A DNA stretch of 62,053 nt, the filler included, from Stramenopiles sp. TOSAG23-6 (lineage: Eukaryota), in NCBI GenBank assembly GCA_900128565.1. It is 20 parts of 20 records of this genome, joined end to end, with 100 filler letters (N's around TTAATTAATTAA, not from the genome) between each part and the next. Parts side by side here need not be neighbours in the genome. Positions count along the whole stretch, not along the records: positions 24,969 to 27,985 come from LT637703.1; 19 more parts are not named here. One strand, given 5' to 3'. Every line of letters starts with the position of its first letter. Position 1 is the first letter of the stretch. Of this stretch, positions 24,969-62,053 are shown piece by piece. Position numbers and translations under genes: made by a program. The notes below the pieces were generated by a model. That model ran no database searches. It worked only from the letters and a program-made list of their open reading frames with translations, and was not told the origin of the DNA.

Positions 24969-27911
24969 TGTGTATGATGATGTATGTTTCAGATTTCAAT
25001 TTTTTTTTTTTTTTTTTTTTTTTATACGAAATTTTTTACCTAACCAAAAAAAAAATGTTTTTTTTTTTTTGAAATATTTTCCCAAAATACATTCTTGCCA
25101 CTGTTTTATATTATTATATTAATTTAAAAGGTGCTAAAAAAGATTATGGAGATACTGTTAGAGGTATCCAATTAGCTGCAGCAAAGAAAGCTTTATTAGC
25201 CCTTAGAAATAAAGATATTAATGATGATCGACCAGAACATTCAAAAAACTGGCGGCCACAATTACTTGTTTTAGTGAAATTAGTAGAAAAAAAAACACCT
25301 AACCCTAACCCTAACATTGATTTGAATACAGTTAATTTTTCAGAGTATTCCAAAAATCAAAATGGTAATGAAAATGTAAAAAATAAAAGTGTTTTTACAG
25401 TGAGTAGACCAGCATTATTAGATGTCGCACAAATGATGAAAAAAGGACGAGGATTAACGATGTACGTTTTCAAAAATTAATTTTTTTTAATTTTTTTTAA
25501 TTTTTTTAATTTTTTTTTTTTTACTATGAAAATTTTGTACCTAACAAATATTTGTACTACACTTTTTTTTGACAATACATGATTCGTTCTTTTATACATG
25601 GTAGTGTTGTTACTCCTCATGATAATGAACATAGACGTCCTGCGGCTATTTCATCATTAAATACTGCAGTAACAAAAGCAAAGATTAATGGATTTGTTGG
25701 TGTTACTGTACGTTTTATTTTTTTTTCAATTTTTTTTTCGTACGTAATTTCGTACCTAACAAATTTTACAAAACACAAAATTTTAATTTTTTTTTCAATT
25801 TTTTTTTCGTACGCAATTTCGTACCTAACAAATTTTACAAAACACAAAATTTCATAATACATGTGGCAAGAGAATTTAAAACTGGAATGGATTGTATTCT
25901 TCAAGAAGTCGGCTTAGCAGGACTTACACCAAATGCTATAATGTATGTTTTAGTTTTTTTTTCAAATTCGATTTTTTTTCGTACGAAATTTCGTACCTAA
26001 TGATTTTTTTAGATTTTTTTTTAAATATTTTTCCAAAATTCATGATCGCATGGCCTAAAGATAAAGATGATGTACATAAAACACGAAATTTTGATGATTC
26101 TCATAAAACAGAAAATAATGTATCTAATAAAGAAGATTTCGTGTATACTTTAAAAGTTGCTTTATCATTAAAAAAAGCTGTCGTGGTGGTCAAAAATCCA
26201 GAATTATTCCCTAATTCTGATACTCAATTACAAGGAAGCATTGATATTTGGTGGATTGTTCATGATGGTGGTATGTATGTTTTTCATTATGAATTTCAAT
26301 TTTTTTTTTCTTTCAAACATTTTTTCAAATTTCAAATTTATTTTTTTTTTCAAACATTTTTTCAAAAATTTTTTTTTATCAATACTTTCAATTGTAATCA
26401 TCATATATAAACCGAATAAACCTAATAAATCTCAAAAAGACAAAAAAAATATTTTCCTAAAATATATGCTTTTATTATTATCTTACCTATTACAACAACA
26501 TCGCATATGGCGTGGATGTACGTTTTATATGAATTTCTAATTTATTTCCAATTTTTTTTTTCATACGAAATTTCGTACCTAACAAATTTTTTAAATTTTT
26601 TTTTTGAAATATTTTGTCAAATAAATGCTCTTTACGTTTATTTATGATTGCAAGTTCTTCTGCGAATGTCGGAGAATTATATTCAGAGTATATGAGACGA
26701 ACACACGAATTAAGAATAAATGTAGAGTTGGAAGTGGTACCACTCGAAGGTCGATTGCTTCAAGCGGCAACAAATAACAGAACTATTGTACATTTTCATC
26801 ATTTTAATTTTTTTAATTTTTTTAATTTTTGATTTTTTTTTCATACGAAAATTTGTACTTAAGAAATTGTACAAAAAAATATTTTTTCACAATACTTGCG
26901 GTACGTCCTGAACCAAGAAGAAAATATGTAGAAGATGTCGAGTCCAGTAGTACCTTGACTGTACATGTGCCTAAACGAGGTAAACGTTATGTATGTTTTA
27001 ATTTTTTTTTTTTTTACAAAAAATCGAATTTATTTTTCATACGAAATTTTGTACCTAACGAATTTAATTTTTTTTTTTTAATATTTTTCCAAAATATATC
27101 TAACACCTATAATGGGTCGTCAGCGTTCGCTTTCCGATATGTTTATTTCTCCAAGATCTTCAAGATCAAATTCACCAAGATCAAATTCATCAAGATCACC
27201 AAAAACAAATTCAGCAAGATCTTCAAGATCAAATTCACCAAGATCACCAAAATCAGAACATTCATTATTTATAGAAAATAATGATAATGAATTAATGCCA
27301 AGTACAAAAAATAATGATAATGAATTAATGCCAAGTAAAATTGATAGTACAACTCAACCACCAAAACCACCAATTGATGTACTATCTAATATAGCATTCC
27401 CAGCATCGCCTCATCTAGAAAATGAGAAAACACAAACTCCACCACCAAAACCATCAACACCAAAAAACTCAGAGACAAAAACACAAACACCACCACCATT
27501 TATCTCTACTACTTCTCCTACACCTCCAAAATCACCACAATATACTCCACCTGCAACATTAGGATCTAGATTATCAATTGCAGCATCTTGTTATGAAACG
27601 TCAGGATTTCTAGAAACAGCATCAAAGGTAAATACACTTATGAAAGAACGATCGAGTGTTTGTTTTATGTTTTCTTTCAATTTCGAATTTATTTTTTTTT
27701 TTTTTGGTATGAAATTTTGTACCTAACAAATTTTGAATTTGAAAAAAAATTCACAGTATATGAAGCTGCTTTAATTGTAACAAATCTTCCTTTGACTCGT
27801 GCATTATCAACAAATACATTTATGAAATATTCATCTACTTTAAGTGATGGTATTGATAAAATGTTATTAATACGTGGTTCAGGTTATGAAGTTGTTACTA
27901 GTTATGCATGA
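24969..27911 (+). CDS. Cation-chloride cotransporter (SLC12, KCC-like), C-terminal region, 10 exons
   Basis: After removing 9 family introns: [107 protein letters not shown]. Confidence 0.92.
24982..25092 (+). other. Non-canonical GT-AT intron (KCC intron 1)
   Basis: AT|GTATGTTTC...ATACGAAATTTTTTACCTAAC...CCCAAAATACAT|T. Confidence 0.8.
25462..25580 (+). other. Non-canonical GT-AT intron (KCC intron 2)
   Basis: AT|GTACGTTTT...TTGTACCTAAC...[22 protein letters not shown]. Confidence 0.85.
25708..25862 (+). other. Non-canonical GT-AT intron (KCC intron 3) with 69-nt internal tandem duplication
   Basis: ACT|GTACGTTTT...GTACCTAAC at 25752 and 25821...CATAATACAT|GTG. Confidence 0.85.
25943..26043 (+). 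other. Non-canonical GT-AT intron (KCC intron 4)
   Basis: AT|GTATGTTTT...GTACGAAATTTCGTACCTAAT...[21 protein letters not shown]. Confidence 0.88.
26275..26467 (+). other. Non-canonical GT-AT intron (KCC intron 5, degenerate interior)
   Basis: AT|GTATGTTTT...CCTAAAATATAT|G; restores [13 protein letters not shown]. Confidence 0.85.
26518..26626 (+). other. Non-canonical GT-AT intron (KCC intron 6)
   Basis: AT|GTACGTTTT...CATACGAAATTTCGTACCTAAC...[25 protein letters not shown]. Confidence 0.88.
26788..26897 (+). other. Non-canonical GT-TT intron (KCC intron 7)
   Basis: ATT|GTACATTTT...CATACGAAAATTTGTACTTAAG...CACAATACTT|GCG, in frame. Confidence 0.7.
26991..27099 (+). other. Non-canonical GT-AT intron (KCC intron 8)
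   Basis: TAT|GTATGTTTT...GTACCTAAC...CCAAAATATAT|CTA; in frame with ORF 27112. Confidence 0.8.
27658..27761 (+). other. Non-canonical GT-AT intron (KCC intron 9)
   Basis: AGT|GTTTGTTTT...GTACCTAAC...[26 protein letters not shown]. The nearby CAG is out of frame and leads to a stop. Confidence 0.82.
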
Positions 27912-28085: not shown

Positions 28086-30405
28086 AAATATACAATAAAA
28101 ATGATACGAATGTAATAAAACTAAATTGTGGTGAAATTCGGCCTAGTACCGCATTAATACATATAAACGCAAACACAGCGAGAACGAGTTGTGTAGCCTG
28201 TTTTTTGGAAAAATATTTTCTACGTTTGAAATTTGTTAGGTACAAAATTTCGTATGAAAAAAATAAATGACATCTATGATGAAAACGTACATGTAATATT
28301 TTACACACCGATCCAGCAACAGCAAATGTTGATAGAAAATGAAAGAAAATATTGTTTCCTACAACAATTCTTCCAAATTCATCTTCTACACATTGATCAG
28401 CAAATAGCCCGTAACTTTGAAGACTGCTCCAAAGTATGATTACATCTAATAGTAAGACCATTATTAAATCCATTTGAAATAATTTCAAGGTCAAAGTCAT
28501 CACTCGGCGTTCTATTTTTTGTCTATTCAAGAAAAATTCACGTCTTTTGATTTCTAATGCCTTTTTCGCTTGTTCTTCTCTCTGTTGAGATAGAATTGCA
28601 GCATGTCGCCGATCTTCAGATTCTATAAATTCTCTATGACGTAATTGTTTCTTCCTACATTCTTTTTCCCATGCTCTAGCTTTTTTCTCCGCATGTAATC
28701 TTTTTGCTTCAGCATCTGCAAACCATTTTTGTCTATCATCTTTTCTTAATTCACTTGCACGACGATTTATCTCACGCTGGGTTCTTTCCCACTGAACGCG
28801 ATCGGTTCGTTGCGTCACTAAAAGTTTCTTCATCTCTATATCATGAGCTAGCATTCGATCAAATACTACTTTACGTGCTTCAGCTTCGTCAACACCTAAT
28901 TGGGCAGCACGGGCGACCATTACCTCCACATCAGTTGGAGTCGCATTTGTGGAAATAATAGGCTTACTATTAAGATTGTCCTTACCCGTATGAATAATTT
29001 CCGTTTGTGGATTTTCACTGTCATAATCACCTAATAACAAAGGTCGTTTTTTTTCACCATTGCAAATATTTTCTAAAGGGTTGACATTATGTAACTTCGT
29101 TTGAGCATCAATCAATTGTTTTTCTTCAGTTTTTACTGTGTGTCGATCTAAACATTCCTGTAACGATAGTAATGTAGACATTCCTTTTTTAACTGAGGGT
29201 AAATGAGCAAATCCAGATTCATATGCAGCTTCAACAGCAACTTTTAGAACCGGTGCAATTAATACAAATTGTGCAATATCAGAAGTATCTGGAATATCAT
29301 TATCTAATTCTTCATTTGTATACTGTATCTTGGATAAAGCAGCCTCACAGTCTTTAGATACGATATCACCAACTCGTAATTGACTACAAATTTTCGTCGT
29401 TGTTTCATCAATTTCTTCGTGAAATTTCAGCATAAATTCTAATATTGCATTTGCTGTATGTGTATTATGTTCTATATATGCCGCACGGTGAAGTGCAAGT
29501 CTAAGTGAATTTCGTAAATGACTCAACTTTGTGAATTCATTTTTGATACTTTCTGATATTTTCAATAGATTTGAAGTGAGATAAACTTTGCGGCCAACAA
29601 CACTTCCTTTTCTATATGATTTCAATGAATATGAAAAATCAGATAAAGCTTCTGTAAGATATCCAACAGTGTCAATAAGTTCTGTAAATGTTTTAGCACC
29701 CAAAGGAAGACATATATGCTCAGTAGTATACGTCGTATTGGGCTCTTCTCTTGACTCTTTTGACTCCTTTGACTCATTTACATCTGAGCAGGATGAATGG
29801 GACTTTACATGACATACGGAATCAGTCATCTTCCGAATTTTCATTATATCCAACACTACAGCTTCTAACTTCTTCACAATCATTGGTGATTCTACAGTTG
29901 TCGACGAAGAGGAAACTGCGATATTCGATTGACTTGTATCTAGAGATAACGTAGAACTGGCATCCAAAGTCAGCCCAAAACTAGAACAGACAGTCTGTTC
30001 CGTCAGATTAGGATCAGATAATATTTGACAAATTTGGCGAATAGTTACCTTCAAGTCACCGAGTACACTGCATCGATGTAATTCGGCAGCGTTCATAGAG
30101 GTTGTTGCGAGTCCAGTTTTAACCATCCAAACAAAAGTAAGCACTAAACTACAAAACATACCTACTATAACAACGTACTGATTCCACGTTTCGAAAGATA
30201 TGGCTTTCATTTTTGATGGAATAGACTCTATGGTGGATAGCAGATTAGAAGCTTTCTGTCGTAACGGGACGGGAGCTCGCTCGTGGGCGTCCTCAGAGAA
30301 AATATCGAAAAAGTCGTCTTCGAGCTCAAAAACATCAAAATCCTGAACGGCGTAAACGTGACTAAACACCACCATAAAAATTAGCAAATGTGAAAAGAAA
30401 CTCAT
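28086..30405 (-). CDS. Hypothetical membrane protein with signal peptide, long coiled coil and C-terminal TM helices (3' truncated)
   Basis: ~750-codon ORF with hydrophobic N-terminus, charged helical region and in-frame intron 28198-28290. Confidence 0.75.
28198..28290 (-). other. Family intron with a canonical AG acceptor (GT-AG variant)
   Basis: CAT|GTACGTTTT...CATACGAAATTTTGTACCTAAC...ATTTTTCCAAAAAACAG|GCT. Confidence 0.8.
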
Positions 30406-32008
30406 ACTTCATACATCTATTCGTATACTCACTAAAACTATCAATAACTAGTCTGATGTAAAATCAATTCATTGAGGTTGTTCATTCGAAAGAATTTGAA
30501 TTTGAAGGAGAAAAAATTCTTGCAGTCAGTCAGTGCTCTCTATTTTTTTGGAAGTTTTGGAACATCGATCTGAACATCAACTTGACTCGATCGATCCCTT
30601 TCTTTAGGTACAAAATTTCGTACTAAAACCACCCACGAAATGATAAAACGATTGAGCGATACCGGGTAACAGAAATCGAAAACGTATTGCATTTTTAATT
30701 GTATAAATGTGTCTAAATCATCAAATTTCAAAAATGCAATGCATGTAAAAATTCTGATTGTATACGAAACCAAATCTAAATAATAATAATTGATCAGAAC
30801 CTGGTGTACAGCTCCACACCAAAAACAAAGATGCGACACAACGAACAAACAAGGTAACTTCGAAAGACTTCGAAACAACTCGAACTCGTGTCAAAGAATT
30901 TTGAAAAAAAACTCCTTTGAATATAGATATAACACGTGTCACTATTAGGGTTAGGGGTTATAAGGGTCATAATCGTCGAAAATGTCAATTGATATGAATG
31001 ACTTGTCGGATTTGTGTTTCACTTTTGAAGAGAAGAGAGAAGCTTGTAAACGTATTCCTCCAAAGCGCAACATTGTGGATTATTCATTTATAACTCTANN
31101 NNNNNNNNNNNNNNNNNNNNNNNNNNNNNNNNNNNNNNNNNNTTAATTAATTAANNNNNNNNNNNNNNNNNNNNNNNNNNNNNNNNNNNNNNNNNNNNTN
31201 TTTTTTTTTTTTTTGGTTTTTTTTTCGTAGGGAATTTTGTACCTAACANTTTTTTTTTTTTTTTTGTTAAATTAATTTCACAATATATTTCCTGGTTTAA
31301 CTGAATTAGCATTATGTGGAATTGGGTTACATAATGAAGTTAAAACTCATAATTGTAGTCTAGAATTGACCTACGAATTAATTTTGATTCCTCCATTGGT
31401 AAACTCAGACATAAAATACAAAACATCAAAAAAATCATGAAATATCAAAAAATCATGAAATATCTAAAAATCACGAAATATCTAAAAATCACGAAATATC
31501 TAATACGAAATGCATTTCAAATGGAAAGAATGCAACACAAATTGATGCATATAATGGTATTTCGTATACATATCATATAAAAACAAAATTAATTTTGATT
31601 CAAATCATTAGTATTGTATTACCTTCAATTCTCTGTGAAGACCCTAACCCTAGATGTTCAATACAAAAAAATCAAAAACATCAAAAAAATCAAAAAATAC
31701 AAGATATTGTAACAAAACTGTCTGAGCGATGTCATAGATCACGAAATGAAGTCTGGGGTTCAAGGCCAATTTATTTTGATACAAGTATACAAAACACGAA
31801 ATCATTCAAAAATACAAAAAATACAAAAAATACAAAAAATACAAAAAACATAAAAAATATAAAATTTCAAGATAATTCAACATTTGATCCATGTACGTTT
31901 TCATCATGAATTTATTAATTTAATTTTTTTTTTTGGTTTTTTCGTAAAAAAATTTCGTACCTAACGATATTTTTTTTTTTGNAAANTTCGGNTTTTTTCA
32001 CAATACAT

Positions 32009-32728
32009 GGGTCAACGTTATTGGGCAGTGATCAAAATGTACCAACGGGGAAAACGAAAGAATTTATTGAAAGACAAATTAATCTGAAAATAGAAAATGC
32101 AATGAAATTACATCAAATTCAAAATGGACTTGGTGGTGGTGGTCAACGTAATTTTGAACGAAAACTTCAAGAATCAAATGAATTAATGGCAGATATGTAT
32201 GTTTTTTTTTTGAATTTTTTGAATTTTTTGAAATTAAAAAAAAAAAAAAAAAAAAAAAAATTTTTTTGGTAAAAAAATTTTGTACCTAACAATTTTTTTT
32301 TTTTTCGGTAAAAAAATTTTGAAATATTTTTTTGTAATACATGAGAGATGGTATGAAACGTGCTGGTGATGCTGTAAAACAAACTTTGGATGCATGTAAT
32401 CGAAAGCATGAAGAAGAAATGAGACGGTTATTGGGAGAGATGAAACGACAAAGAGAAGAACATGAGAAAGCGATGTATGTTTTTTTTTTTTTTTTTTTTC
32501 CGGTAAAAAAAAAAAAAAAAATTTTGAAATTTTTTTTTCATAGTAAATTTTGTACCTAACCAAAAAAAAAAAAAAAAAAAATCCAATATTTTTCCAAAAT
32601 ACATGCGCTATATGAAAGATATTGTTCACCAAGCTAAAGAAACAGTGAAGGATGCATTGAGTTCAAGTCTATCTGGTCAACAAGCTCTTGAGCGTAAATT
32701 CGAAACGAAGTTGGATGAGCTTCGATAA
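32009..32728 (+). CDS. Coiled-coil protein, 3' exons (32009-32196, 32343-32474, 32605-32728)
   Basis: GT-AT introns 31893-32008, 32197-32342 and 32475-32604 link ELMADM-RDGMKR...HEKAM-RYMKD...LDELR*. Upstream exon structure unresolved. Confidence 0.65.
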
Positions 32729-33175: not shown

Positions 33176-33636
33176 TTAGATCATTCTTTGAATGAGTTTG
33201 TTGATTGCTTCACCTCTGTTTCCAGAAGATCCACCTTCATTAAAGTGCAAAAGTTTTTTTGCGAAACCACCTTTAGGTGAATTCATTTTGAATGGGAAGA
33301 GAAAGTTATTTGCAACTTTGAAGTTATCTCCACAAGTGAAAATTTCATGAATGAGATCTTCAATGCAAATGATTCCTTGTTCACCAAGAACATTCTCAAT
33401 AATGAGATTATCAGTCAATGTATTTTGGAAAAATATTTCAAAATTTTTTTTTTTTTTTTTGGTAGTAAAAAAAAAATTGTTAGGTACAAAATTTCGTATG
33501 AAAAAAAAAAAAAAAAAAAAAATTAAAAAATTAAAACATACAAGGAATTCTCTGTCCACTTGATCTCTTTGATTTAGCACCTTTTCCGAATCCACGTTTG
33601 TAGATTAATTCACGTACTGATTTCAAGTTTGGTGTT
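33176..33636 (-). CDS. RPL7: 60S ribosomal protein L7 (uL30), 3' exons (33542-33636, 33176-33417)
   Basis: [18 protein letters not shown]...[49 protein letters not shown]...[15 protein letters not shown]. Confidence 0.93.
33418..33541 (-). other. Non-canonical GT-AT intron in RPL7
   Basis: CCT T|GTATGTTTT...CATACGAAATTTTGTACCTAAC...TCCAAAATACAT|TG ACT GAT AAT restores the conserved QRIPLTDN. Confidence 0.9.
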
Positions 33637-33808
33637 CTGTGTAGTAAAAAGTATTGTAGACAGATAAAAACGATAAGTTACAATTCTAAAAAAAAAAAAA
33701 AAAAATTTTAAATCTCAAAAAAAAAAAAATCTAAAATAATTTGTTTGGTACAAAATTTCGTATGAAAATAAATTCGAAATTGAACCTTTACACAAATATA
33801 CAAAATGA

Positions 33809-33955: not shown

Positions 33956-34072
33956 GATACCCTCAGATTTTACTTCGCATCATTCTCTTGAGTCCTACAT
34001 ACCGACTAAAGCATGCCTCCAACAAGTGGAGATAGGTTCGTAAGTGTAGCTGATTAGAATTCATTGGGTATC
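33956..34072 (-). ncRNA. Putative intronic box C/D snoRNA/scaRNA
   Basis: 7-bp terminal stem GATACCC/GGGTATC flanking C-like ATGAAT and D box CTGA; internal ATGATG. Confidence 0.6.
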
Positions 34073-34395
34073 CCTAACCCTAAGAAAAAAAAAAAAATAA
34101 ATTAATTTTTGTTTTCTGGTTTTTCTATGAAAATTTCGTATGAAAACCAAAAAAAAAAAAAAAAAAAAAATTAAATTAATAAATTCATGAAAAACACAAA
34201 AAACATACCNNNNNNNNNNNNNNNNNNNNNNNNNNNNNNNNNNNNNNNNNNNNTTAATTAATTAANNNNNNNNNNNNNNNNNNNNNNNNNNNNNNNNNNN
34301 NNNNNNNNNTCAAATTCGTTTTTTTTTTCGTACGAAAGTTTGTACCTAAGAAATTTTAGTTTTTTTTTTTTTTGAAATATTTTTCCAAAACAAAT

Positions 34396-34616: not shown

Positions 34617-37314
34617 TCAAATCATTCTTATTAAGAAAGTTCTAACATCCATTGGTCGTAGTGTAACCGTGGGATAGGAAAACGGAATTTGTTTTTCGTA
34701 TGAATGCTTTTTTACATTTTCAAAATATTCTTCAGTTTCAGCGTTTGCATATTTTGTTTTCCATTTATGTTTCGAATGTTGATACTGCTGCCAATCACGA
34801 TTACCAGTCAAAGTAGTTTCATGGGCTTCGATAACTTTCATACCTGATTGTGCAAATATATTTTCAAGATTAACTTTGACGGGAAGTGAAAGAATTGGGT
34901 GTTCATTTGCTTCATAAAGATGAGATAAACGCAATAAATATTGTCCGTCATTGTACGATGCATAATTCGATGTCAACGTAACAAGTTTGACATTATCAGG
35001 CAAAGCAGCAGACACAGCACTAAATAATGATCCATATTTAGACAATCCTTCATTTGTAAAAGTCAAAAGAGGAGGAAAATTTAATGATTCAGAGAGTTTT
35101 CGTCTAATTGAATGTACTGATTTGATTGTATCAAATATTAACCAATGTCGCCCTCGCATAGTTAAACCTTCAGACATACAACCACCATCACCTTCATGGC
35201 CAAATTCGCCCATTTGGCCAGGAGCTGCATGAATGTCGTTACTACATTTAAAAAAATATTAAAAGTGTGAAAAGATGAGATATTATGTAAATACAAAAAG
35301 AAATAGGTATACAAGTGAATAAATATATGTTAACATACCATCCGGACATTGTTTCGTTCAATGCCTCTTGAACGCCACGAGCATCATCAGCTTGTAATCT
35401 TCTATGAACCATAAATTCAAGTTCTCCATCATGTAGTGATGACCCTCCTTGACTAACATCAGTAAGAATAGCTAGTTCATGATGTATATCATTAATGGAC
35501 ATGAGTGCATTTACAGGGTAATAATTACCTGCGACTGGCTCAGAGATTAAATATGGATGAGGATAGGTAGGCCCACGTTTGTTTCTCCTTCGCTTTACCA
35601 TTTCTTTACCATTTGAGTCAGTGTACCATTCTCCTTTACTCTTGAGTCCACTCTTGTAACGAATAACAACCTCCTTGCCCCAATTATTTGGCATTGGCTT
35701 TCCATTATTGAACGCGACAGGTGGAAACCATGGTGTATCAACTGGTATTGGTCCTGCGGTCCACTCTAGCTCGACGTATGGCTTCTCATTGTACAAACGA
35801 ATTACATGAGATGCCCATCGAGAGAATGATTGAATAACTTCCGTGACGACTTCACCATAATTTACTGATAATGATGGAGCTACTTTTGGTCCAGGATAAA
35901 AAAAATTCAGTCGAATTAGGGCGGAAGATATATGCCCCAGATGCTTGTGAAGAGCATGCAGGTTCTCTAATGCCTACTGGAATACTTGAGTCGTACTGAG
36001 TGCAACCACCTATTGAGCTGTTGTACCACCCCCATTGAATTGATAGATCTGTAGAAATACCTGAAATCTTGTTGGTTATCTTAGTGACATGTCCATTTTT
36101 AAACTCCAGAGAATACATCTCATTTTCAACTGTTCTATCCAATGTACTTGATGTTTGATTGTGACGTAATAACTGATTATGCACAACGACTAATGGTGGT
36201 TCATTGTGCTGAACTGTTTCTGTTTTCTTTGCATGAAAAGCGGCAAGTCCTACGGGTGGAATTTCCATATCAAAGACTAGCACATGATCTGCCTTATTTT
36301 CGAGTTTCATCTTTTCCATTTTTATTTCAGTCGAATTCATTCCAAATGAATTTAAGTATAAAAGGGGAAGAGACTTGGTTCGTTCATCAATAGCTATCAC
36401 TTGACTAGGTAATAGTTTTCCATTTTCAGTTGTCACTTCCCAAAACTTACCATTAACTGGAATTCTAGCAATGCTTTTAGCTTTATGTGCCCGAGGATTC
36501 CATGCTGCAACACCAAACGTATCTATTCCAGTTGTAGCAGCACACATTGTCATATTTAAGCAATTTCCAGCAGTATGGCAATTACAGTGTTGTATACTGG
36601 TAGCATTAACTTTAAGAATTTTACTGATTGCCAATGAAATTCCAGCTTGTACTTCCACACTTGACTCAGATATCCTTTGTTCATAGTCATCAGCAACAGA
36701 TTGACGTTCAGTTCCAGACATACCATCATGATGTGTTGCTACTCCAACAGTACCTTCAAGTGAATCGGTCCATGAGTCACCCACCGTTGGAGATTTTTTC
36801 GCTGTAGGACAATGTACCTCTTTTGCAGTAGTTGTTGTTGCAATTTCAAGTTGCCTTGCTGACATGAGCAAGTTCGTTGCAAACCGAACTTGTCGTTTTA
36901 AAGCAGGTCGACTAGTAAAGTAACCTGACCAATAATTGTGGCTACTGTCCAATAGCGGGAAAATATCATCAGGGCGTACATTCCATGAAACATTTGAAAG
37001 TTTCTTTTGATCAGTGTATATGTATTTTGGAAAAATATTTCAAAAAAAAAAAACTTAAATTTGTTAGGTACCATCAAGGCATTCTGGACAAATTTATCTA
37101 CCCACTGGTCAACATTATAATCATGGCGGTAAGGGTCATCAACAACTTCGCTATTTGTCCCATCAAAGTTAAACCAAGTTGCATAACCTCCACTACCAGT
37201 ACCAAAAAGGTTCCCAGCAAATATATCAGCTGATGAGCCTAGCGATTTTGAGCCTTCCCAAATCCACTCAAATCCGTTAGTATTTCCTTCTTTTTTGAAA
37301 CGCATATCTCGATC
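34617..37314 (-). CDS. Lysosomal-type alpha-mannosidase (GH38), 5' truncated, with one apparent frameshift and an internal gap
   Basis: YWSGYFTSRPALKRQVR, THHDGMSGTERQ, SGAYIFRP, WYTDSNGKEM, EPVAGNYYPVN, GELEFMVHRR, LLRLSHLYE. Canonical intron 35242-35338. Extra base in the homopolymer at 35898-35905. Confidence 0.9.
35242..35338 (-). other. Canonical GT-AG intron lacking the family motifs
   Basis: TG|GTATGTTAAC...AAATGTAG|T joins ETMSGC-NDIHAAPG. Confidence 0.85.
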
Positions 37315-38381: not shown

Positions 38382-38642
38382 TAAGAACCAATGTAATTTG
38401 AATTTTCAATCAATATAATATTATGAACAAAATAGATAGCCCAATGTCTTCGAATCTAAATCTCGATATCTTTTTGTCAAAAATTCGCAGCGCTCTAGCT
38501 AGGGTTAGGGTTTCGTGGTCTACCTTCTTTCTTTGTGTTACGAACCGAACACCTCCTCATTATATCCTCGTTCGTTCGCACTAGTAGTACCCTCCTCCTC
38601 AACAAAAAGTTAAGTTTTTGCTTGCCCTTTCAGTATTTTAGA

Positions 38643-39764: not shown

Positions 39765-40363
39765 CTATTTTAAACGTCTCGTGGCAGCAACTTTACTTCG
39801 ATGCTTGGCTGCCGCAACTTTTCGACCAGTTTTGTTCTTATGAGACATTGCACCAGCGGCGCGTCTCTGTGATAGCATCTCACCTCTTAAAGTGACAACA
39901 CAAGTTTGAGATCCATCAGCACTACTAGTGATATCCTTCTTTAATTCAGTATTTATTTCATTGCTTGTAGGGACTAAAATTGTCCAGTTGCAAGATTCTT
40001 TTGGTATTTGTAGTAAAATTGCATCCAACGAAGAATTACTACGACTTTTAATACCTAAAGAAATTCTAGATTTTTTCATTGCTACGATGAAATAATATTT
40101 TGTTTCCTGTATAACAATTACATGTATTGTGAAAAAAAAAAATTACAAAAAAAAATCGTTAGGTACGAAATTTCGTATGAAAAAAAAGTTAAATTAGAAA
40201 TTCATATAAAACGTACATCATTACCAAGTAATAACATCAATGGAATCGTACCAACAAACATACCATTCTTATTCATGCCTTCAAGATATCGAAATGGCTG
40301 GGCACAAGAAATTGGATATCGTGCGTATTGATTATTTACTCGAATGATACGAAGTGTACAACC
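39765..40363 (-). CDS. Hypothetical protein, 3' exons (40217-40363, 39765-40121)
   Basis: GT-AT intron 40122-40216 joins LLGND-VIVIQE in frame to the stop at 39765; upstream family acceptor at 40364. Confidence 0.6.
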
Positions 40364-43615: not shown

Positions 43616-44471
43616 AAATATCTATGAATAGCTTCTAAGGCTGTGGTGAAATTGCGATGATGCAAACAATTTAAATATCGTAGAAAATATGTATTACGAA
43701 AAATATTTCAAAAAAAAAAAATACAATTTGTTAGGCACAAATTTTTCAAAAAAAAAAAAATGAAAAATAAAAATATGATGAAAACGTACATGCACTAGGT
43801 AAATTTGGTCTATCTGCGAGTAAATCTTGAATAGCTGCTTCGGTTTCGGCCTCTGGTCGCCAACCAATGGTACCTTTTATTTCTACCACACGTTGTTGAA
43901 GCTGCAGCTTAGATTGCATGAGAGAAAGTTTTCGATCACTATTATCAGTTTTACCAGTCTTCCCTTCTTCTAAATATGCTTGCACTTCAACAAAGAGCTT
44001 TGACATTAAACTAAATGAAAGTTGTGTTGCAGTTAAGCTTAATCTACGAAGGAAACGACCAAACACACTCTCGCGTTCAACATTCGATGGTTGTGTATTA
44101 CTTGACTCACTATTTTGAAGTTCATCGGACGACTTGAGCAACTCATTTGTACTCGTACTAGATATAAAATCATTCAAAGCATCAGGTGAATCTATCTCAC
44201 ATAATATTTCCAAAAGTACATTTCCTACAGTGCAAGAATTCTCGCCAGTTCTATGTATTGTAAAACAATCAGATTTGAGATCAAAAACAAGTTTACTAAG
44301 TAACAACTGTTCCGGATTCCGTATTTCTCTCATTATACACAAAGCTAAATGTTTGGCACAATCTGCGGATAAACTATAGGAGGTCATATCACAGCTAGGG
44401 GTGCTCTTGCGGAGGTAAATTCGCATTAAAGCATAAATTGATATTATGTGGGGAGATATAAATGATGACAT
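43616..44471 (-). CDS. ANAPC5: Anaphase-promoting complex subunit 5, 5' part (exons 43790-44471, 43616-43688)
   Basis: ISPHIISI, SVFGRFLRR..LSFSLMSKLF. Splicing 43689-43789 (GT-AT) gives PSAY-FLRYLNCLHHRNFTTALEAIHRY. Confidence 0.85.
43689..43789 (-). other. Non-canonical GT-AT intron in APC5
   Basis: GCA T|GTACGTTTT...GTGCCTAAC...TTCGTAATACAT|AT. Confidence 0.85.
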
Positions 44472-46613: not shown

Positions 46614-46795
46614 NNNNNNNNNNNNNNNNNNNNNNNNNNNNNNNNNNNNNNNNNNNNTTAATTAATTAANNNNNNNNNNNNNNNNNNNNNNNNNNNNNNN
46701 NNNNNNNNNNNNNAAAAAAATTACATTTGAAATTCATTTTCGTACAAAAAAAAAAAAAAAATTAGGGTTAGGGTTAGGGTTCATATCAAACGTAC

Positions 46796-48102
46796 ATGGA
46801 ATTGATCAATATGAGAAGTTCCTTTTGATGATCTTGACGTGGTACGACTTTTTCAGTTTGTAGATTTTTTATCATAGATACATCTATGCTTAAGTGAGTA
46901 CCAAATGAATTTCGAATTTCTTTTGTTTTAAGTGTTGAACCTTTTCTTCTAACTACCTTATTTTTCAATTTATTCAATTTATTCAATTTGGCATTATTTA
47001 CATGTATATTTGAAATTGTAAACATATCAGGTGTTATATTTGGTATATTGACTGTACTCAATTTGTCATTGATCTCCTTATACGCTGTTGTAACCAGTTT
47101 TGTTCCATCACCTTCGAATTTTGGATCTTGATATAAAATTTTTAATATTTCTGAAAAATATTCCAAACGTTCGAGCTTTGATGTTTTTTGGAAAAATAAT
47201 TTTTTTTTCGTAAAATTTGTTAGGTACAAAATTTTTTTACCAAAAAAAAAAAAAATAAATTCGATTTTTTTGTAAAAAAAAAAATAAAACATACATAGTT
47301 GATGTTCACTTTTTGATGATTTCGGATTCATTCGCATCATTTTTCGAACATTTGCCAAAGCTTGTTGAATTGAAAGTGCTTGATTTGGATTATTTAACTT
47401 GGTAGATTTCATCAATTGTGAACAATGCATCAATTTCAAAACTACATCGACCCATTGCTCTCCTTCATTCTCCATTATTGACAAAGCTGCTGCAAAATTA
47501 TCTTGTGTTTTTGATTGGGATGATACAGCTAAAGTATTAGTCGATAAAACAGATGAAATGTGTGATGTATTTGGTTTTGAAGAAGAGTTTGATTTATGTT
47601 TCTTCATATTTTGCTTCTGTGGTAAGGCATCTTCATCTGTCGAAGAATTCTTCATATCGTGCTCAGTTGATATGTGATTTTGTTTATCCATATTTTTTAG
47701 GGGTGATCGAAGACGTTTTTTGCTGCCACTATCAGCAGTTTTAATGTCAACGTTGATAAGATTTTTCTTTTTTGAAAGTCTTTTTGAAGCGAAAGTGGTC
47801 GCACTAGACTCACTATCGTTGCTACTTGAAACAGAAGTAACTTTGTCATTTTCAACGAGCCATCTGATACAATCTGAAGTGCTTCCCTTCGATAACTGCA
47901 ATGCAGATGTTATATCAGGATCATGCGCAATTATTTTCAATTCTGCTAAAGCATCTTTCACCTTAAAAAAAACATTTTTGGGTATGCTACTGGACTTAAC
48001 TACGCATACATCATTTGGGACTCGACGACTCGATTCATTCTTGGTATCTCTAATGTGTCTTTCACTCTTTCCAAAAAATACATTACCAAGTGCATTCAAC
48101 AT
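46796..48102 (-). CDS. Hypothetical protein, 5' exons (47295-48102, 46796-47180)
   Basis: ORF with in-frame GT-AT family intron 47181-47294; next donor at 46795. Confidence 0.6.
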
Positions 48103-52956: not shown

Positions 52957-55881
52957 GTGTCTTGATCTTGAGAAACTTGATCACTGTTTCTGCTTGTCCT
53001 GCCATCCACACCAATATGATAAAAAAGTGAATTACATCTTGTCGACTCTTCATTATCACATGTGTCTTTATCTTTTCTCAATTGAATTTCTCCAAGACAA
53101 AAATTTGCAATACCAACTCTGAACGCAAAATTTGCCTCTGTGTACTTTGCACTGAAAGGGAAACCATCTTTATTATTTAATTCACCATGCATGTTTTTTG
53201 GAAAAATATTTCAAAAAAAAAAACCTAAATTTGTTAGGTACAAAATTACGTACGAAAAAACAATTCGATTTTTTTGTAAAAAAAAAAATAAAACATACAT
53301 TCTTCCAACACTGCTAAGTCTTTCACGATCATACAATGAAGCACCATTAGTATATGAACCCCAAACTACACCTTTTTGAATATTTATACACCTATGTCTC
53401 ACTTTCATATTTAACTTTTCATATTTTTTCCAAGGTTTTCGTATAATTTTTTCTGACCATTCTTTGTAATCTTCTCTTAAAATTATCCCAACTAATTGAG
53501 TATCTATTTTTAGTATATTAATTGCACTTTGAATTGGATTTTTTGCAGCAATTGTAGCTCTTTTATCATCAAAGAAATTAGGTTGCATAACCCAATCATT
53601 TTCTAATGTTAAAATGTATGGGGCAGAGCAAAGTATTTTGGAAAAATATTTCAAACAAAAAATCGTTAGGTACAAAATTTCGTATGAAAAATAAATTCGA
53701 AATTGAAAAAAAAAATAAAACATACATGTAAGCCATGTCATAGCATATATTTTCATCACAACCATTGGGGTGGTTGAACTCTTTACAACTTCCCATGATT
53801 CTTTCCACAGAAATATATGGCGCATTACACAAAAATTTTTCCCGAAGATTTTCCCGTAACTCCTTCAAGTTCTCAAATTTATTGATGCGGTTTTTATCAG
53901 GCGTTGCGAGTTTACACAGAATATATGAAGACATGGGTACCTTTGAAATCAAATAAATTAATGCGAAAGTAATACCTAATATCGCACATATCCGATATAG
54001 ACATTTTCTAGCCCCACTCCTCAAAATAGCAAATGGTGACCACAGAGCACAAGTAAAAAATACCATATTAACAAAATTTATGTTTTGTATCGTTATAAAA
54101 ACTATTATCAAACAACACACAAATTCCCCAAATGATGCACTCGCTATCTTTGCATTTATTAAAATTTTCCATTTGTGTTTTTTGGTATTTGGTCGACTCC
54201 CAAAGAAATTCAATAAAACACAAGAAAGAACGAGTATGTATTTTGGAAAAATATTTCAAAAAAAATCTAAATTTTTTTGTTAGGTACAAAATTTCGTACG
54301 AAACAAAAATCGAATTTGAAAAAAAATAAAACATACATCATTATGGGTTTCCAAATGACACGCACAACTTGCAACTTTTTCGACGTTTGGAGATCCCGAT
54401 ATTCATTTATATCTGCATTTCTAATTCCATATGATTTCAAAATATACTCCGACATCAATCGATACAACGGGAAAACTGTCGGAAATGGCCATGAAAAAGC
54501 TAAATACTCCATGGTGATGATCGACACCGAAAATATTACAAAACATATTAAAGAACGTCTCGTTGCAGCAACAGAAGTACATTTTTTAGAAGTTTTGTTG
54601 TTGTATTTAGATAAACCATTCCATGATGAAGGCAATGTAAATTCCAATACAAAATAAATATAACTAAGCATCCAAACAGTACCATAAAAAGACACATTCA
54701 CTTCTACTGCGATCAAAACCAAAATACTTAGAAATAAGAGCCACCGAAGAATGTAGAATGTATCAGAATTTCGATCTCCCTTTAACGGTAGCAGACATTT
54801 TATGAAATATGACATGTTCAATTTCTTCAATTTTAAAAAACAATTCCCTATTATCACAATAAGCAAAGTTGAAATAAAACCGTCTGTATCATTATGTATT
54901 TTGGAAAATATTTCAAAATAAAATCGTTAGGTACAAAATTTCGTACGAAAAATAAATTCGAAATTGAAAAAAAAAATAAAACATACATAGGTCTGACGAT
55001 GACTCCATTCAGTTCCATATATTGATTCGAAATCCGAGCAATACTTGGTTGAGTCGAGAGCATGATCTTTCATATTACACCATGAGGCTAACAACAAACT
55101 TGCAAAAGATGTCAATATAAGTGAAAAATTATAAATTGGCAAAATGGAAGATAATTTCTTTGGAAAAATTAGCAAAATTTGAGCAGCGAATAGACTGATA
55201 AATCCAACTACACTTCCATCTACGAAAGCCTTTAGAAAACTGAGAAGAATTATGGCCCAATAATGTGTATTCATTGATTCGCAAAATACTTCCACAAATA
55301 ATATGAATTTATGCCAACTTGATCTTATTTTGAAATAAATTTTATCATCGCGCTCCTCAATTTTCTTTCCCTCTATATTATCATTGGATTGAATTCCCCC
55401 TTGACCTTTGGCTTCTCTTTCTACTGTTGCTCTTACGTTCGTTGCTTCAAATTCTGTTCCATCCTCACCTCTGCTTCTACGTTCATAAAATAATGAATGG
55501 GAGCCTTGTTTTCCTTCAATTTTATTTTCTCCATTGAATTCATCTTTTTTTATATTACACGATGCGATGTCAATACTATCTTGTTTTCCTTCAATTTTAT
55601 TTTCTCCATTGAATTCCTCTTTTTTTATATTACAGGATTTGATTTCGGGAATTTCAATAATTACTTCTGATAGTAAAGGTTCCCCACATTTACCACGTCT
55701 AAAATCGTGGTATGGACTACGCCGAGTATTAAATTTCAAAAAAAACAAGAAAAGTGTTATAGGAACTTGTAACAGTATAAACAAAAATGCATCATTTGTT
55801 TTACTACGCCAAGTTTCGTTGGCAAAAATAGAAATTAGCGAGGTGAGGATGGAACAGAATTTGAAGCAACGAACGTAAGAG
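52957..55881 (-). CDS. Multi-exon membrane protein with C-terminal glycosyltransferase-like segment (partial, possibly chimeric)
   Basis: GT-AT introns 54894-54986, 54236-54336 and 53191-53298 join in frame. The junction at 53631-53725 is off by one. Motifs PYILTLENDW and WGSYTNGASLY. Confidence 0.55.
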
Positions 55882-61070: not shown

Positions 61071-62053
61071 TCAACAAACGTAGCCCAAAGTAACTTTTTT
61101 TGGAAGCGATTTGGTGTCATTGACATGTTGAATTGCTTCATATACACCACCAATAATCATAAATATACTCAAAACTAATAATAGCTTGGCACAGAACTGA
61201 TGTATATCAGATGGTTTTTCTTTTTTCCCACAGAGATTTAAATAACATGATGCAGGTATTACATAACCAATAATGACAGAAATGGACGAGCCCATAAATG
61301 TCCAAATGACAATAATTGAAGGGATTTGTATTGCTGAAAGTAAAGCAAATGTTGAAATCGAAATGGCTATAAAAAACCTCTGAAGAAATGATAAATCATC
61401 AACATAATTTTCATCTACATATTCAACATTTGTCGTACTGTTTTCAATATCCTTTTCATTTTGAACACTGTCATCATTCAGATTTAGTAATGTGACTTGA
61501 TGAGATTCTAGCATTGAAGAATTTGACTCCCCTATTTTGAGAGTATTTTCATTATTTTGACTTTCTTTTGTTACTGTATTTCGTGTATTATGATACACCA
61601 ATGCGACAAGTGCATCTCTGCATGGTAATACTAAAAGAGGAAAGGAAAAAAATAAAGTCAAAGCCAGACCATGTATTGTAAAAAAATTTAAATTCTAAAT
61701 TTGTTAGGTACAAAATTTCGTACGAAAAAAAAATTTTGAAATTCATAATGAAAACGTGCTAATCGACCAGTATTAATGACCATATCTTCCGGATCAAAAT
61801 TATCTAAAATATCCCCACATGTTTGATCCAATTTAAAGAAATAACCAAATAAACCAACAAGAGTATATAAGCAAAAACAAATCATTATTGTAGATCGAAT
61901 TACAATACGTACATTGGACCGCTTTGGGTTTTTTAGTTCACTATGAGTCCCAAGAACATGTATTTTGGAAAAATATTATTTTTAGTAAAATTTGTTAGGT
62001 ACAAAATTTGGTACAAAAAAAAAATTCGAAATTCAATTTTGAAAACGTACATT
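61071..62053 (-). CDS. Amino-acid transporter (SLC38/AAAP family), 3' exons (61760-61957, 61071-61670)
   Basis: N-VLGTHSELKNP, YTLVGLFGY..TCGDILDNF, GRL-GLALTLFFSFPLLVLPCR, FMGS..GYVIPA. Confidence 0.85.
61671..61759 (-). other. Non-canonical GC-AT family intron
   Basis: TTA|GCACGTTTTCATT...TCGTACGAAATTTTGTACCTAAC...TACAATACAT|GGT, in frame. Confidence 0.78.
61958..62050 (-). other. Non-canonical GT-AT intron
   Basis: AAT|GTACGTTTT...GTACCAAATTTTGTACCTAAC...CCAAAATACAT|GTT. Confidence 0.82.

What the first reader, a model, noticed from the sequence alone, without database searches (positions are those of the whole stretch)
25974..26001. Palindromic hairpin fused to an atypical TACCTAAC branch-like motif
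Seen: the most conserved part of the introns is TTTCGTACGAAA, a perfect palindrome. It overlaps GTACGAAATTTCGTAC, also perfect in this copy, which runs into TACCTAAY. The poly-T/poly-A spacers vary freely. Established: the U2 branch consensus is TACTAAC and the U12 consensus is TCCTTAAC; this motif matches neither exactly. Inference: the ~22-nt element is a recognition site for a variant snRNA or protein that makes up for the missing AG.
Basis: partly seen in the sequence, partly recalled or inferred. Interest (0 to 1): 0.75.

Follow-up and report, generated by a model that had tools for sequence, protein, structure and literature searches.

The report
Branch box of copied GT-AT introns
The motif is the middle of a roughly 100-base intron copied almost unchanged into many genes of an AT-rich marine protist; only its GTACCTAAC half is tightly kept (probably the branch site), and these introns appear to end in AT instead of the near-universal AG.

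Summary
The sequence at 25974-26001 is exactly as described and is far more frequent than chance allows. The reading needs correcting.

- **A repeated intron, not a stand-alone element.** The motif is the core of one 89-193 nt intron family: GTAYGTTTT, T-run, (AATTTCGAATTT), T-run, C[G/A]TACGAAATTTT, GTACCTAAC, spacer, GAAATATTTTTCCAAAATACAT. A sequence-only model finds about 45 unique loci on 10 of 14 unlinked contigs. Copies in different genes are up to 95% identical.
- **What is conserved.** It is the branch box, not the palindrome. Among 28 introns picked by donor alone, GTACCTAA occurs in 23 and exact TTTCGTACGAAA in 6.
- **No hairpin support.** Neither palindrome shows covariation. Introns with broken palindromes still keep their reading frames.
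- **The missing AG is real at the DNA level.** Of 20 informative candidates, 18 restore the frame only as GT...AT. Homologue alignments confirm three junctions. Among 19 validated introns, 18 end in AT and 1 in AG.

Best reading: an introner-like, self-contained intron cassette whose GUACCUAAC is the branch site. The 3' site is more likely set by the conserved AAUACAU tail than by the palindrome.

No RNA evidence was obtained, and no snRNA gene could be examined.

The parts
25943..26043 (+). The intron that holds the finding (101 nt, GT...AT, phase 2) in an SLC12 cation-chloride cotransporter gene
   Evidence: Removing it joins open frames of 84 and 121 codons. It scores 55.8 bits, E 1.7e-16, full length against family model R1 (it was a training sequence). 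It is 89% identical to the intron at 54236-54336 on another contig.
25943..25951 (+). Donor GTATGTTTT, preceded by exon ...AT
   Evidence: In the family, G+1 is 19/19, T+2 18/19, A+3 19/19 and G+5 19/19. Positions +1 to +8 were used to pick the set, so those counts are partly circular.
25963..25971 (+). Box A remnant CAAATTCGA (family consensus AATTTCGAATTT, itself palindromic)
   Evidence: Alignment A2. A TTCGAA/TTCGAT/ATCGAA core is present in 12 of 28 donor-picked introns.
25977..25988 (+). Palindrome 1, TTTCGTACGAAA
   Evidence: Exact in 6/28 introns. No covariation: 84.3% paired against 83.8% in shuffles.
25981..25996 (+). Palindrome 2, GTACGAAATTTCGTAC, perfect in this copy; it can form a 6-bp hairpin
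   Evidence: The 28-nt stretch folds at -6.5 kcal/mol, z -3.95, but the whole intron gives z -0.20. Across 35 copies it is 78.1% paired against 78.2% in shuffles, with 0 compensatory cells.
25993..26001 (+). Branch box GTACCTAAT (family GTACCTAAC); inferred branch adenosine at 26000, 43 nt before the 3' end
   Evidence: GTACCTAA occurs in 23/28 donor-picked introns. T, C, C, T, A, A are invariant in A2. The branch position is inferred by analogy with UACUAAC (recalled) and is not mapped.
26023..26043 (+). 3' tail AAATATTTTTCCAAAATTCAT ending in AT (family ...CCAAAATACAT)
   Evidence: At -1, T is 18/19; at -2, A is 19/19; at -3, C is 16/19; at -6 and -7, A is 19/19. The UAG at 26010-26012 is skipped; using it gives an early stop (read by hand).
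25708..25862 (+). Family intron with an internal 69-nt tandem duplication, so it has two branch boxes
   Evidence: Frames are open for 45 and 45 codons in phase 0.
25462..25580 (+). Family intron, GT...AT
   Evidence: phase 2, 129/91 codons open.
26275..26467 (+). Diverged intron (branch-like AAACCTAAT), GT...AT
   Evidence: Homologue P0228 residue 839 spans the junction with no gap.
26518..26626 (+). Family intron, GT...AT (ends AAAT)
   Evidence: phase 1, 115/67. P0228 and P0229 align contiguously across it.
26991..27099 (+). Family intron, GT...AT (ends ATAT)
   Evidence: phase 0, 55/208.
256..345 (+). Family intron on another contig
   Evidence: phase 0, 79/180. It is 91% identical to 54894-54986.
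3488..3626 (+). Family intron (ends TTCAT); repeated in the six further copies of this contig
32197..32342 (+). Family intron with a decayed palindrome (GGTAAAAAAA)
   Evidence: phase 2, 67/71.
32475..32604 (+). Family intron with a decayed palindrome (CATAGTAAA)
   Evidence: phase 2, 45/40.
33418..33541 (-). Family intron in ribosomal protein uL30 (RPL7)
   Evidence: Homologue P0001 residues 158 and 159 abut across it; phase 1, 45/79.
28198..28290 (-). Family intron whose last base is G: the only AG acceptor, at the same element position
   Evidence: phase 0, 706/37.
40122..40216 (-). Family intron
   Evidence: phase 0, 64/118.
43689..43789 (-). Family intron (branch box GTGCCTAAC)
   Evidence: phase 1, 231/23.
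47181..47294 (-). Family intron
   Evidence: phase 1, 278/130.
53191..53298 (-). Family intron
   Evidence: phase 2, 188/98.
54236..54336 (-). Family intron
   Evidence: phase 2, 196/212.
54894..54986 (-). Family intron, 95% identical to the copy at 53631-53725
   Evidence: phase 0, 298/208.
61671..61759 (-). Family intron with a GC donor (GCACGTTTT) in an amino-acid transporter gene
   Evidence: phase 0, 72/199.

Best explanation
The 28-nt stretch is the internal core of a short intron, about 90-150 nt, that exists in many near-identical copies in unrelated genes of this genome. In that sense it is an introner-like or MITE-like intron family.

Each copy carries its own set of splicing signals: the donor GUAYGUUUU, a 9-nt branch box GUACCUAAC, and a 3' tail ...CCAAAAUACAU.

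Shown here:
- the family exists and is dispersed;
- GTACCTAAC is the part kept by selection, while the two palindromes are features of the youngest subfamily consensus and are not maintained;
- removing GT...AT restores the reading frames.

Inferred:
- The copies are removed from pre-mRNA by a U2-type spliceosome, with the second A of CUAAC as branch point.
- The 3' cut after AU is specified by the conserved tail. That tail is also the inverted complement of the exon-AU/GUAU donor junction, so the two ends could pair.
- The family spread by a transposon-like process. The AT before the donor and the AT at the intron end would then be a 2-nt target duplication.
- The palindromes are left over from the element's origin: an internal TTTCGTAC duplication and self-complementary GTAC/TTCGAA cores, possibly former protein-binding sites on DNA. 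They are not an RNA hairpin needed for splicing.
For: - Family and dispersal. Sequence-only model R1 gives 94 hits at E<=0.01. By my collapsing of the seven duplicate contigs and of weak opposite-strand echoes, that is about 45 unique loci on 10 of 14 distinct contigs.
- Similarity over the whole length. Pairwise identity between introns at different loci reaches 95%, 91% and 89%; the highest value among shuffled controls is 69%.
- Subfamilies share non-signal blocks.
- Orientation. Copies lie sense to the coding strand wherever that strand is known.
- Branch box. GTACCTAA occurs in 23/28 and CCTAA[CT] in 25/28 donor-picked introns, against 6/28 for the exact palindrome.
- Hairpins are not maintained.
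- Boundaries. 18 of 20 informative candidates keep long open frames on both sides only with GT...AT (chance is about 1 in 3 each). Homologues align without a gap across three junctions.
- Ends, in 19 validated introns: intron -2 is A in 19/19 and -1 is T in 18/19; exon -2 is A in 15/19 and -1 is T in 17/19.
- The one AG acceptor sits at the same element position (28198).
- Five introns skip an AG in the tail.
- Phases are spread 7/5/7, my tally.
Against: - No RNA evidence.
- Two candidates do not fit. 31893-32008 is frame-inconsistent and has Ns inside. 53631-53725 is off by one base and ends ACTT. The assembly also has at least one homopolymer frameshift.
- No transposase, no empty site, no presence/absence polymorphism and no antisense or clearly intergenic full copy was found. 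Mobility therefore rests on similarity alone.
- The 2-nt AT repeat and the 6-nt inverted ends cannot be told apart from splice-site preferences.
- The branch-box counts anchored on the motif are circular; only the donor-picked counts are not.
- GTACCTAAC is longer than canonical U2 pairing needs.
- The family was not found in two public collections: 0 of 64 and 0 of 6 exact 17-mer matches belong to it.
Confidence: 0.6

Rival explanations
1. One reading: the palindromic hairpin plus TACCTAAC acts as one ~22-nt RNA recognition site for a variant U2/U12-like snRNA (GUAGGUA-type) or a protein, and this makes up for the missing AG.
For: - In this copy the 16-nt palindrome folds at -6.5 kcal/mol (z -3.95) and leaves CUAAU single-stranded at the foot of the stem.
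- GTACC just upstream of CTAAC is kept in 37-39 of 39 copies, more than canonical U2 pairing needs (motif-anchored, so partly circular).
- AG is absent in 18/19 validated introns.
Against: - No covariation in either helix; percent paired equals the shuffled controls.
- The exact palindrome occurs in only 6/28 introns.
- By my reading, 12 of the 19 validated introns lack a perfect palindrome 1.
- The whole-intron fold is no better than shuffles (z -0.20).
- The distance from the box to the 3' end varies from 31 to 63 nt, so the box cannot measure out the cut site.
- No snRNA could be examined.
Confidence: 0.15
2. Constraint only: these are ordinary, old introns of a compact genome whose spliceosome demands long rigid signals, as in yeasts or Ostreococcus. 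On this view they look alike because of selection, not because they are copies.
For: - Donor, branch box and tail are the best-kept blocks, and the spacers vary.
- Earlier scan notes on another genome (e1-562521, e1-563787) ended with exactly this verdict for a look-alike case.
- No sign of mobility was found here.
Against: - Identity of 89-95% over the whole length, non-signal blocks included (AATTTCGAATTTATTTTT, CATCATGAATTTATTAATTT and others), between introns of different genes and contigs; shuffled maximum 69%.
- Clear subfamilies.
- An internal 69-nt duplication.
- Very high density, about one copy per kb.
Confidence: 0.17
3. DNA-level elements: the palindromes (TTCGAA, CGTACG, GTAC cores) are protein-binding sites on double-stranded DNA. 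They would be either transposase sites of the element or signals for excision from DNA, like ciliate internal eliminated sequences, rather than RNA signals.
For: - The palindromes are perfect only in the youngest-looking copies.
- The element has inverted ends (AT)GTAT...ATAC(AT) and a 2-nt direct repeat.
Against: - Strand-specific, sense-only placement and the yeast-like donor plus CTAAC point to RNA splicing.
- The closest named relatives of the CNOT9 protein are mostly stramenopiles; that this group has no known DNA elimination is recalled.
Confidence: 0.06

Closest known systems
Introner elements of Micromonas pusilla and Aureococcus anophagefferens
   Same: Hundreds to thousands of short, near-identical introns in unrelated genes, sense-oriented, with short direct repeats and inverted ends. 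Each copy brings splice signals with it. Basis: a passage in PMC7789003 states that the Aureococcus elements always display direct repeats and terminal inverted repeats of constant length with canonical splicing motifs; the rest is recalled.
   Different: Those elements use canonical GT-AG. Here the acceptor is AT in 18/19, the direct repeat is only 2 nt, the sequence is extremely AT-rich, and mobility is not shown.
Non-canonical repeated introns (introners) of Amoebophrya, PMC7789003 (passages read)
   Same: Repeated non-GT-AG introns in a marine protist, with inverted repeats at the ends and 3-5 nt direct repeats over the boundaries. They were missed by standard gene prediction.
   Different: In Amoebophrya no terminal dinucleotide pattern dominates, and 8-20 nt hairpins join the ends. 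Here GT and AT are nearly constant, a yeast-like donor and CTAAC branch box are present, and end complementarity is only about 6-10 nt.
Rigid extended splice signals of compact genomes (yeast GTATGT/TACTAAC, recalled; Ostreococcus per earlier notes e1-562521 and e1-563787; PMC2483917 seen in a search listing only)
   Same: A near-invariant donor and an extended branch box ending in CTAAC; short introns.
   Different: Those introns share only the signals and end in AG. Here the whole intron is shared, and it ends in AT.
U12-type (minor) introns
   Same: An extended, near-invariant branch box ending in TAAC, and tolerance of non-AG ends (AT-AC class). Recalled; PMC12130899 methods list AG and AC as the accepted 3' sites.
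   Different: The donor is GTAYGTTTT, not [AG]TATCCTT. The box differs from TCCTTAAC at 2 of 8 positions. It lies 31-63 nt from the 3' end rather than about 10-15. The ends are GT-AT.
[quoted passage not shown]
   Same: A genome-wide departure from GT/AG, handled by a modified U2-type machinery (divergent U2AF, snRNA changes).
   Different: That lineage is animal, and the donor rule is also lost there. Here GT is kept, only the acceptor G is replaced, and the introns are one repeat family.

Membership tests
U2-type spliceosomal intron | GT (rarely GC) donor with extended consensus | tested here: met
   G+1 19/19, T+2 18/19 (one GC), A+3 19/19, G+5 19/19. Partly circular, because the set was picked by G[TC]A[CT]GTTT.
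U2-type spliceosomal intron | Branch site fitting yUnAy, tens of nt upstream of the 3' end | tested here: met
   CTAA[CT] in 26/28 and CCTAA[CT] in 25/28 (one of these is a telomere-like repeat). Distance to the 3' end is 31-63 nt, and 102 nt in the duplicated intron. The branch point itself is not mapped.
U2-type spliceosomal intron | AG at the 3' end | tested here: not met
   AT in 18/19 and AG in 1/19 validated introns. AGs inside the tail are skipped in 5 introns.
U2-type spliceosomal intron | Removed from RNA via a lariat | not testable with these tools
   Read laying returned nothing. Removal is inferred from frames and homologue contiguity.
U12-type intron | Donor [AG]TATCCTT (recalled consensus) | tested here: not met
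   The donor is GTAYGTTTT in all copies.
U12-type intron | Branch box TCCTTAAC close to the 3' end (about 10-15 nt, recalled) | tested here: not met
   TACCTAAC differs at 2 of 8 positions; the distance is 31-63 nt.
Introner / MITE-like intron-generating element | Many near-identical introns in unrelated genes | tested here: met
   Up to 95% identity over the full length against a shuffled maximum of 69%. About 45 unique loci on 10 of 14 contigs.
Introner / MITE-like intron-generating element | Terminal inverted repeats and target-site duplication | tested here: inconclusive
   Ends read (AT)GTAT...ATAC(AT). Exon -2/-1 is A in 15/19 and T in 17/19, matching the intron's last AT. This is too short to separate from splice-site preference, and no third matching base is seen.
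Introner / MITE-like intron-generating element | Evidence of movement: empty sites, polymorphic insertions, autonomous partner | not testable with these tools
   No genome or relatives are held. None of the 29 ORFs scanned has a transposase domain. The family is absent from the 64 metagenome and 6 viral 17-mer matches.
Structured RNA element (hairpin) | Base pairs maintained across copies by compensatory change | tested here: not met
   Helix 1: 84.3% paired against 83.8% shuffled, 1 compensating cell. Helix 2: 78.1% against 78.2%, 0 cells.
Structured RNA element (hairpin) | Folds better than shuffled sequence | tested here: inconclusive
   The 28-nt piece of this copy gives z -3.95. Whole introns give z -0.20, -1.05, -0.56 and -1.68.
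Euglenid/diplonemid-type nonconventional introns | Variable borders without GT-AG, with the ends brought together by extensive pairing (abstract of PMC12621601) | tested here: not met
   The borders are constant (GT, AT). End complementarity is about 6-10 nt. The C/T difference at donor +4 is not matched by a change in the tail.

The most novel reading that the evidence does not exclude
This lineage has switched its main acceptor from AG to AU. A self-contained intron cassette, carrying donor, a 9-nt GUACCUAAC branch box and an AAUACAU acceptor box, has colonised its genes. The extra length of the branch box is read by a co-evolved U2 (GUAGGUAC-type) or SF1-like protein, and the acceptor is chosen by pairing of the tail with the exon-AU/GUAU junction rather than by U2AF.
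Probability: 0.25. Interest if true: 0.85.

Novelty: new variant of a known kind. Interest (0 to 1): 0.62.

Why it matters
If RNA data confirm the boundaries, this would be a eukaryote in which most introns seen end in AU rather than AG while keeping a textbook donor and branch site. That would be a natural experiment on how the second splicing step picks its site.

It would also be an introner family that spreads with a non-AG acceptor. Annotation-based introner surveys accept only AG or AC acceptors (PMC12130899 methods), so they would miss it.

In practice, gene prediction that allows only canonical splice sites would break most genes of this organism.

For the finding itself, the useful result is negative: the eye-catching palindrome is inherited baggage, and the functional candidates are the 9-nt branch box and the 3' tail.

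Tried and rejected
- **RNA and DNA reads.** Read laying was asked three times and gave no data. Nothing is known about transcripts.
- **AT...AC register (shifted by 2).** It is possible wherever the exon ends in AT, but it fails for 4 of the 19 validated introns. Positions -4/-3 also vary (AC, TC, AA, AT) while the last AT is constant. Rejected.
- **TG...CA register.** Fits 17/19; rejected in favour of GT.
- **Downstream or internal AG acceptors.** They break the frames.
- **CpG decay as the cause of palindrome variants.** CpG observed/expected is 0.94, so no such claim is made. The CG/CA/TG variants may simply mark subfamilies.
- **Family elsewhere.** An exact 17-mer scan gave 64 metagenome loci and 6 viral loci, none with the intron context.
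- **Rfam on the window.** 0 matches.
- **Own genome.** Not held.
- **Near-identical transcripts in the protein database.** The best uL30 hit was 80% identical and the best SLC12 hit 36%.
- **Brute-force listing of all frame-compatible GT..AG/AT pairs.** Too noisy to use.
- **A motif-less intron in the mannosidase gene (about 35245-35340, minus strand).** First read as GT-AG, but an in-frame ...ACAT end 9 nt further on fits equally well. Left undecided.
- **A 51-nt copy at 37020-37072 that starts directly with GTACCTAAC.** It fits no register and about 100 residues of the enzyme seem missing. Treated as a possible assembly fault.
- **Literature.** Searches found no paper describing a GT-AT intron class. 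Term searches for 'intron' and 'splice' in PMC5778133 and PMC3998028 found only methods text. Two searches failed on syntax.
Full report
**What the window is.** The 62-kb window is not one molecule. It is a chain of contigs of about 3 kb, sorted by falling length and joined by 44 N + TTAATTAATTAA + 44 N spacers. Seven of these contigs (3126-24868) are near-identical copies of one 3020-bp contig, so raw counts over the window are inflated.
- No whole genome is held for the window.
- The DNA is AT-rich, with GC 0.20-0.40 in 2-kb windows.
- It encodes ordinary eukaryotic proteins: RMI1, GH38 alpha-mannosidase, BUD31, a polyketide-synthase KR/ACP piece, MsrA, CNOT9/Rcd1 and an amino-acid transporter. 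It also encodes ribosomal protein uL30 and an SLC12 cotransporter.
- The closest named relatives of CNOT9 are mostly stramenopiles.
- The source is therefore probably a marine protist, possibly a stramenopile. This is not established.

**The observation.** The letters are as described: TTTCGTACGAAA at 25977-25988, the perfect 16-nt palindrome GTACGAAATTTCGTAC at 25981-25996, and TACCTAAT at 25994-26001.
- Both halves are hugely over-represented: 36 hits against 0.34 expected, and 53 against 0.96. By my collapsing of the duplicate contigs that is about 24 and 35 hits.
- The branch-like half is strand-specific and always points the same way as the local coding frame.

**It is part of a whole repeated intron.** Listing the flanks of every GTACCTAA[CT] and of every donor-like GTAYGTTT shows that the motif never stands alone. 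It sits in a fixed order of blocks:
- GTAYGTTTT(A/C), then a T-run;
- often AATTTCGAATTT, then a T-run;
- C[G/A]TACGAAATTTT, then GTACCTAAC followed by (A/G)A;
- a variable A/T spacer, then GAAATATTTTTCCAAAATACAT.

Twenty full copies align over 179 columns with this consensus (A2). Evidence that these are copies of one element:
- A sequence-only model built from A2 finds 94 matches at E<=0.01. After removing the six extra contig copies and seven weak opposite-strand echoes, that is about 45 unique loci on 10 of the 14 distinct contigs. Twenty of them were training sequences.
- Introns in different genes and on different contigs are up to 95%, 91% and 89% identical over their whole length. The median is 69%. 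Shuffled controls have a median of 60% and a maximum of 69%.
- Subfamilies share blocks that have no known splicing role, for example GTACGTTTTCATCATGAATTTATTAATTT and GTATGTTTTATTTTTTTTTTTACAAAAAAATCGAATTT.

This is the signature of copies of one element, not of unrelated introns converging on the same signals.

**Which part is conserved.** To avoid circularity I counted motifs in 28 introns picked by the donor pattern alone.

| Motif | Introns with it (of 28) |
|---|---|
| GTACCTAA | 23 |
| CCTAA[CT] | 25 |
| CTAA[CT] | 26 |
| exact TTTCGTACGAAA | 6 |
| CGTACG | 8 |
| 16-nt palindrome | 6 |

In A2 the invariant columns are in the donor, in T-CCTAA of the branch box and in the tail, not in CGTACG. 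The TACCTAAC half passes.

**The hairpins.** I tested both proposed helices on 35 aligned copies.
- Helix 1 (UUUC/GAAA): 84.3% of cells pair, against 83.8% in column shuffles, with 221 of 500 shuffles at least as high and one compensating cell.
- Helix 2 (GUACGA/UYGUAC): 78.1% against 78.2%, with no compensating cell. Its outer G-C pair is broken in 21 of 35 copies.
- The 28-nt piece of this copy folds at -6.5 kcal/mol (z -3.95). The whole intron folds no better than shuffles (z -0.20), and three other family introns give z -1.05, -0.56 and -1.68.
- By my reading, 12 of the 19 validated introns lack a perfect first palindrome, yet they sit in intact frames of conserved genes.

A hairpin can form in some copies, but nothing shows that it is needed.

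**The missing AG.** For 23 donor-plus-branch candidates I set the 3' end by the family tail and asked in which phase long open frames continue on both sides.
- Two candidates are cut by contig or window ends, and one is a false donor inside an exon.
- Of the other 20, 18 keep at least 20 open codons on both sides only if exactly GT...AT is removed.
- Two do not fit. 31893-32008 has Ns inside. 53631-53725 is off by one base and ends ACTT.
- Homologues confirm exact removal at three junctions. uL30 relative P0001 has residues 158 and 159 abutting across 33418-33541. SLC12 relative P0228 is contiguous across 26275-26467 and 26518-26626.

In the resulting 19 validated introns:
- the last base is T in 18 and G in 1 (28198, at the same element position);
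- position -2 is A in 19, -3 is C in 16, and -6 and -7 are A in 19;
- the upstream exon ends in A at -2 (15/19) and T at -1 (17/19), and the next exon starts with G in 12/19;
- five introns carry an AG between the branch box and the end, and it must be skipped.

For the finding's own intron, using the TAG at 26010-26012 runs into a stop codon (read by hand). The shifted AT...AC reading is excluded, because four of the 19 validated introns lack the exon AT and because -4/-3 vary while the final AT does not. All of this is DNA-level inference. I obtained no RNA reads.

**How it most likely works.**
- Shown: a dispersed family of near-identical short introns; a near-invariant 9-nt GTACCTAAC; non-maintained palindromes; GT...AT as the only register that restores the genes.
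- Inferred: the copies are spliced by a U2-type machinery, since they have a yeast-like donor and a CTAAC 31-63 nt before the end.
- Inferred: the branch point is the second A of CUAAC, which is 26000 in this copy.
- Inferred: the cut after AU is chosen through the conserved tail. AT alone cannot define the site, because 3-7 other ATs lie between the branch box and the end.
- The tail AAAAUACAU is the inverted complement of the exon-AU/GUAU(G)UUUU junction, so the two ends could pair. The C/U difference at donor +4 is not compensated in the tail, so this pairing is not supported by covariation.
- The inverted ends plus the AT/AT direct repeat also look like a small DNA transposon with a 2-nt target duplication. 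That would explain why the acceptor dinucleotide equals the exon end, as in known introners, where the duplicated target supplies one splice site (recalled).
- The phases are spread evenly (7, 5 and 7). This is compatible with recent insertion, an argument from recalled knowledge.

**What stays open.**
- The strict conservation of GUACC in front of CUAAC exceeds what pairing with the canonical U2 box needs (recalled).
- No transposase, empty site or polymorphic copy was seen.
- The family was not found among 64 metagenome and 6 viral exact 17-mer matches.

**Comparison with known systems.**
- It works like introner elements (Micromonas, Aureococcus), but those keep GT-AG (passage in PMC7789003).
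- It resembles the repeated non-canonical introns of Amoebophrya in having inverted and direct repeats. Those lack any constant terminal dinucleotide.
- It is not U12-type: the donor, the box and the distance all fail.
- It recalls rigid-signal genomes such as yeasts and Ostreococcus (earlier notes e1-562521 and e1-563787). Those share only signals and end in AG.
- Tunicates show that a U2-type machinery can be re-tuned to non-GT/AG introns (abstract of PMC13326754).
- My searches found no description of a GT-AT intron class. A recent introner survey lists only AG and AC as accepted 3' sites (PMC12130899 methods passage).
- Supplements of these papers were not examined.

**Verdict.**
- The palindrome is inherited baggage of a copied intron.
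- The TACCTAAC half is the probable branch site.
- The absent AG is real at the DNA level and is the most remarkable feature, but it still needs RNA confirmation.
- I rate it a new variant of a known kind: an introner-like family with an AU acceptor.

Noticed in passing
window 1-62053 (spacers e.g. 3026-3125, 24869-24968): The window is a chain of ~3-kb contigs sorted by falling length and joined by 44 N + TTAATTAATTAA + 44 N. Neighbouring genes are therefore not physically linked.
   Followed up: yes
window 3126-24868: Seven near-identical copies of one 3020-bp contig. They look like a 3.1-kb tandem repeat and inflate every motif count. Whether this is an assembly duplicate or a real repeat is unknown.
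   Followed up: partly
window 25713-25852: A 69-nt tandem duplication (2.0 copies, 97% matches) inside one intron gives it two palindrome-plus-branch boxes.
   Followed up: partly
window ~35895-35915, minus strand: The GH38 mannosidase reading frame shifts within a T-run with no intron signals. This is most likely a homopolymer length error in the assembly, which warns that single-base frame misfits elsewhere may be errors.
   Followed up: partly
window 37020-37072, minus strand: A 51-nt family copy begins directly with GTACCTAAC at the exon edge and fits no splice register. About 100 residues of the mannosidase seem to be missing here. It may be a deletion or a mis-join between repeated introns.
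   Followed up: partly
window ~46750-46795 and ~34070-34090, minus strand: Telomere-like CCCTAA/TTAGGG repeats lie inside or next to intron-like sequence.
   Followed up: no
window 38499-39668, plus strand: An intron-less gene for the splicing factor BUD31 (Pfam E 7e-53). It is the only spliceosome component in the window and was not analysed further.
   Followed up: no
window 33600-33680, minus strand: The intron upstream of the confirmed uL30 intron may end in ...ACTACACAG, i.e. in AG, after a mutated tail (CAATACTT). The upstream exon was not found, so this is undecided.
   Followed up: partly
window 40517-43515 and 45462-45651: Many single Ns are scattered through a polyketide-synthase-like contig, pointing to low-quality or consensus-masked assembly there.
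   Followed up: no
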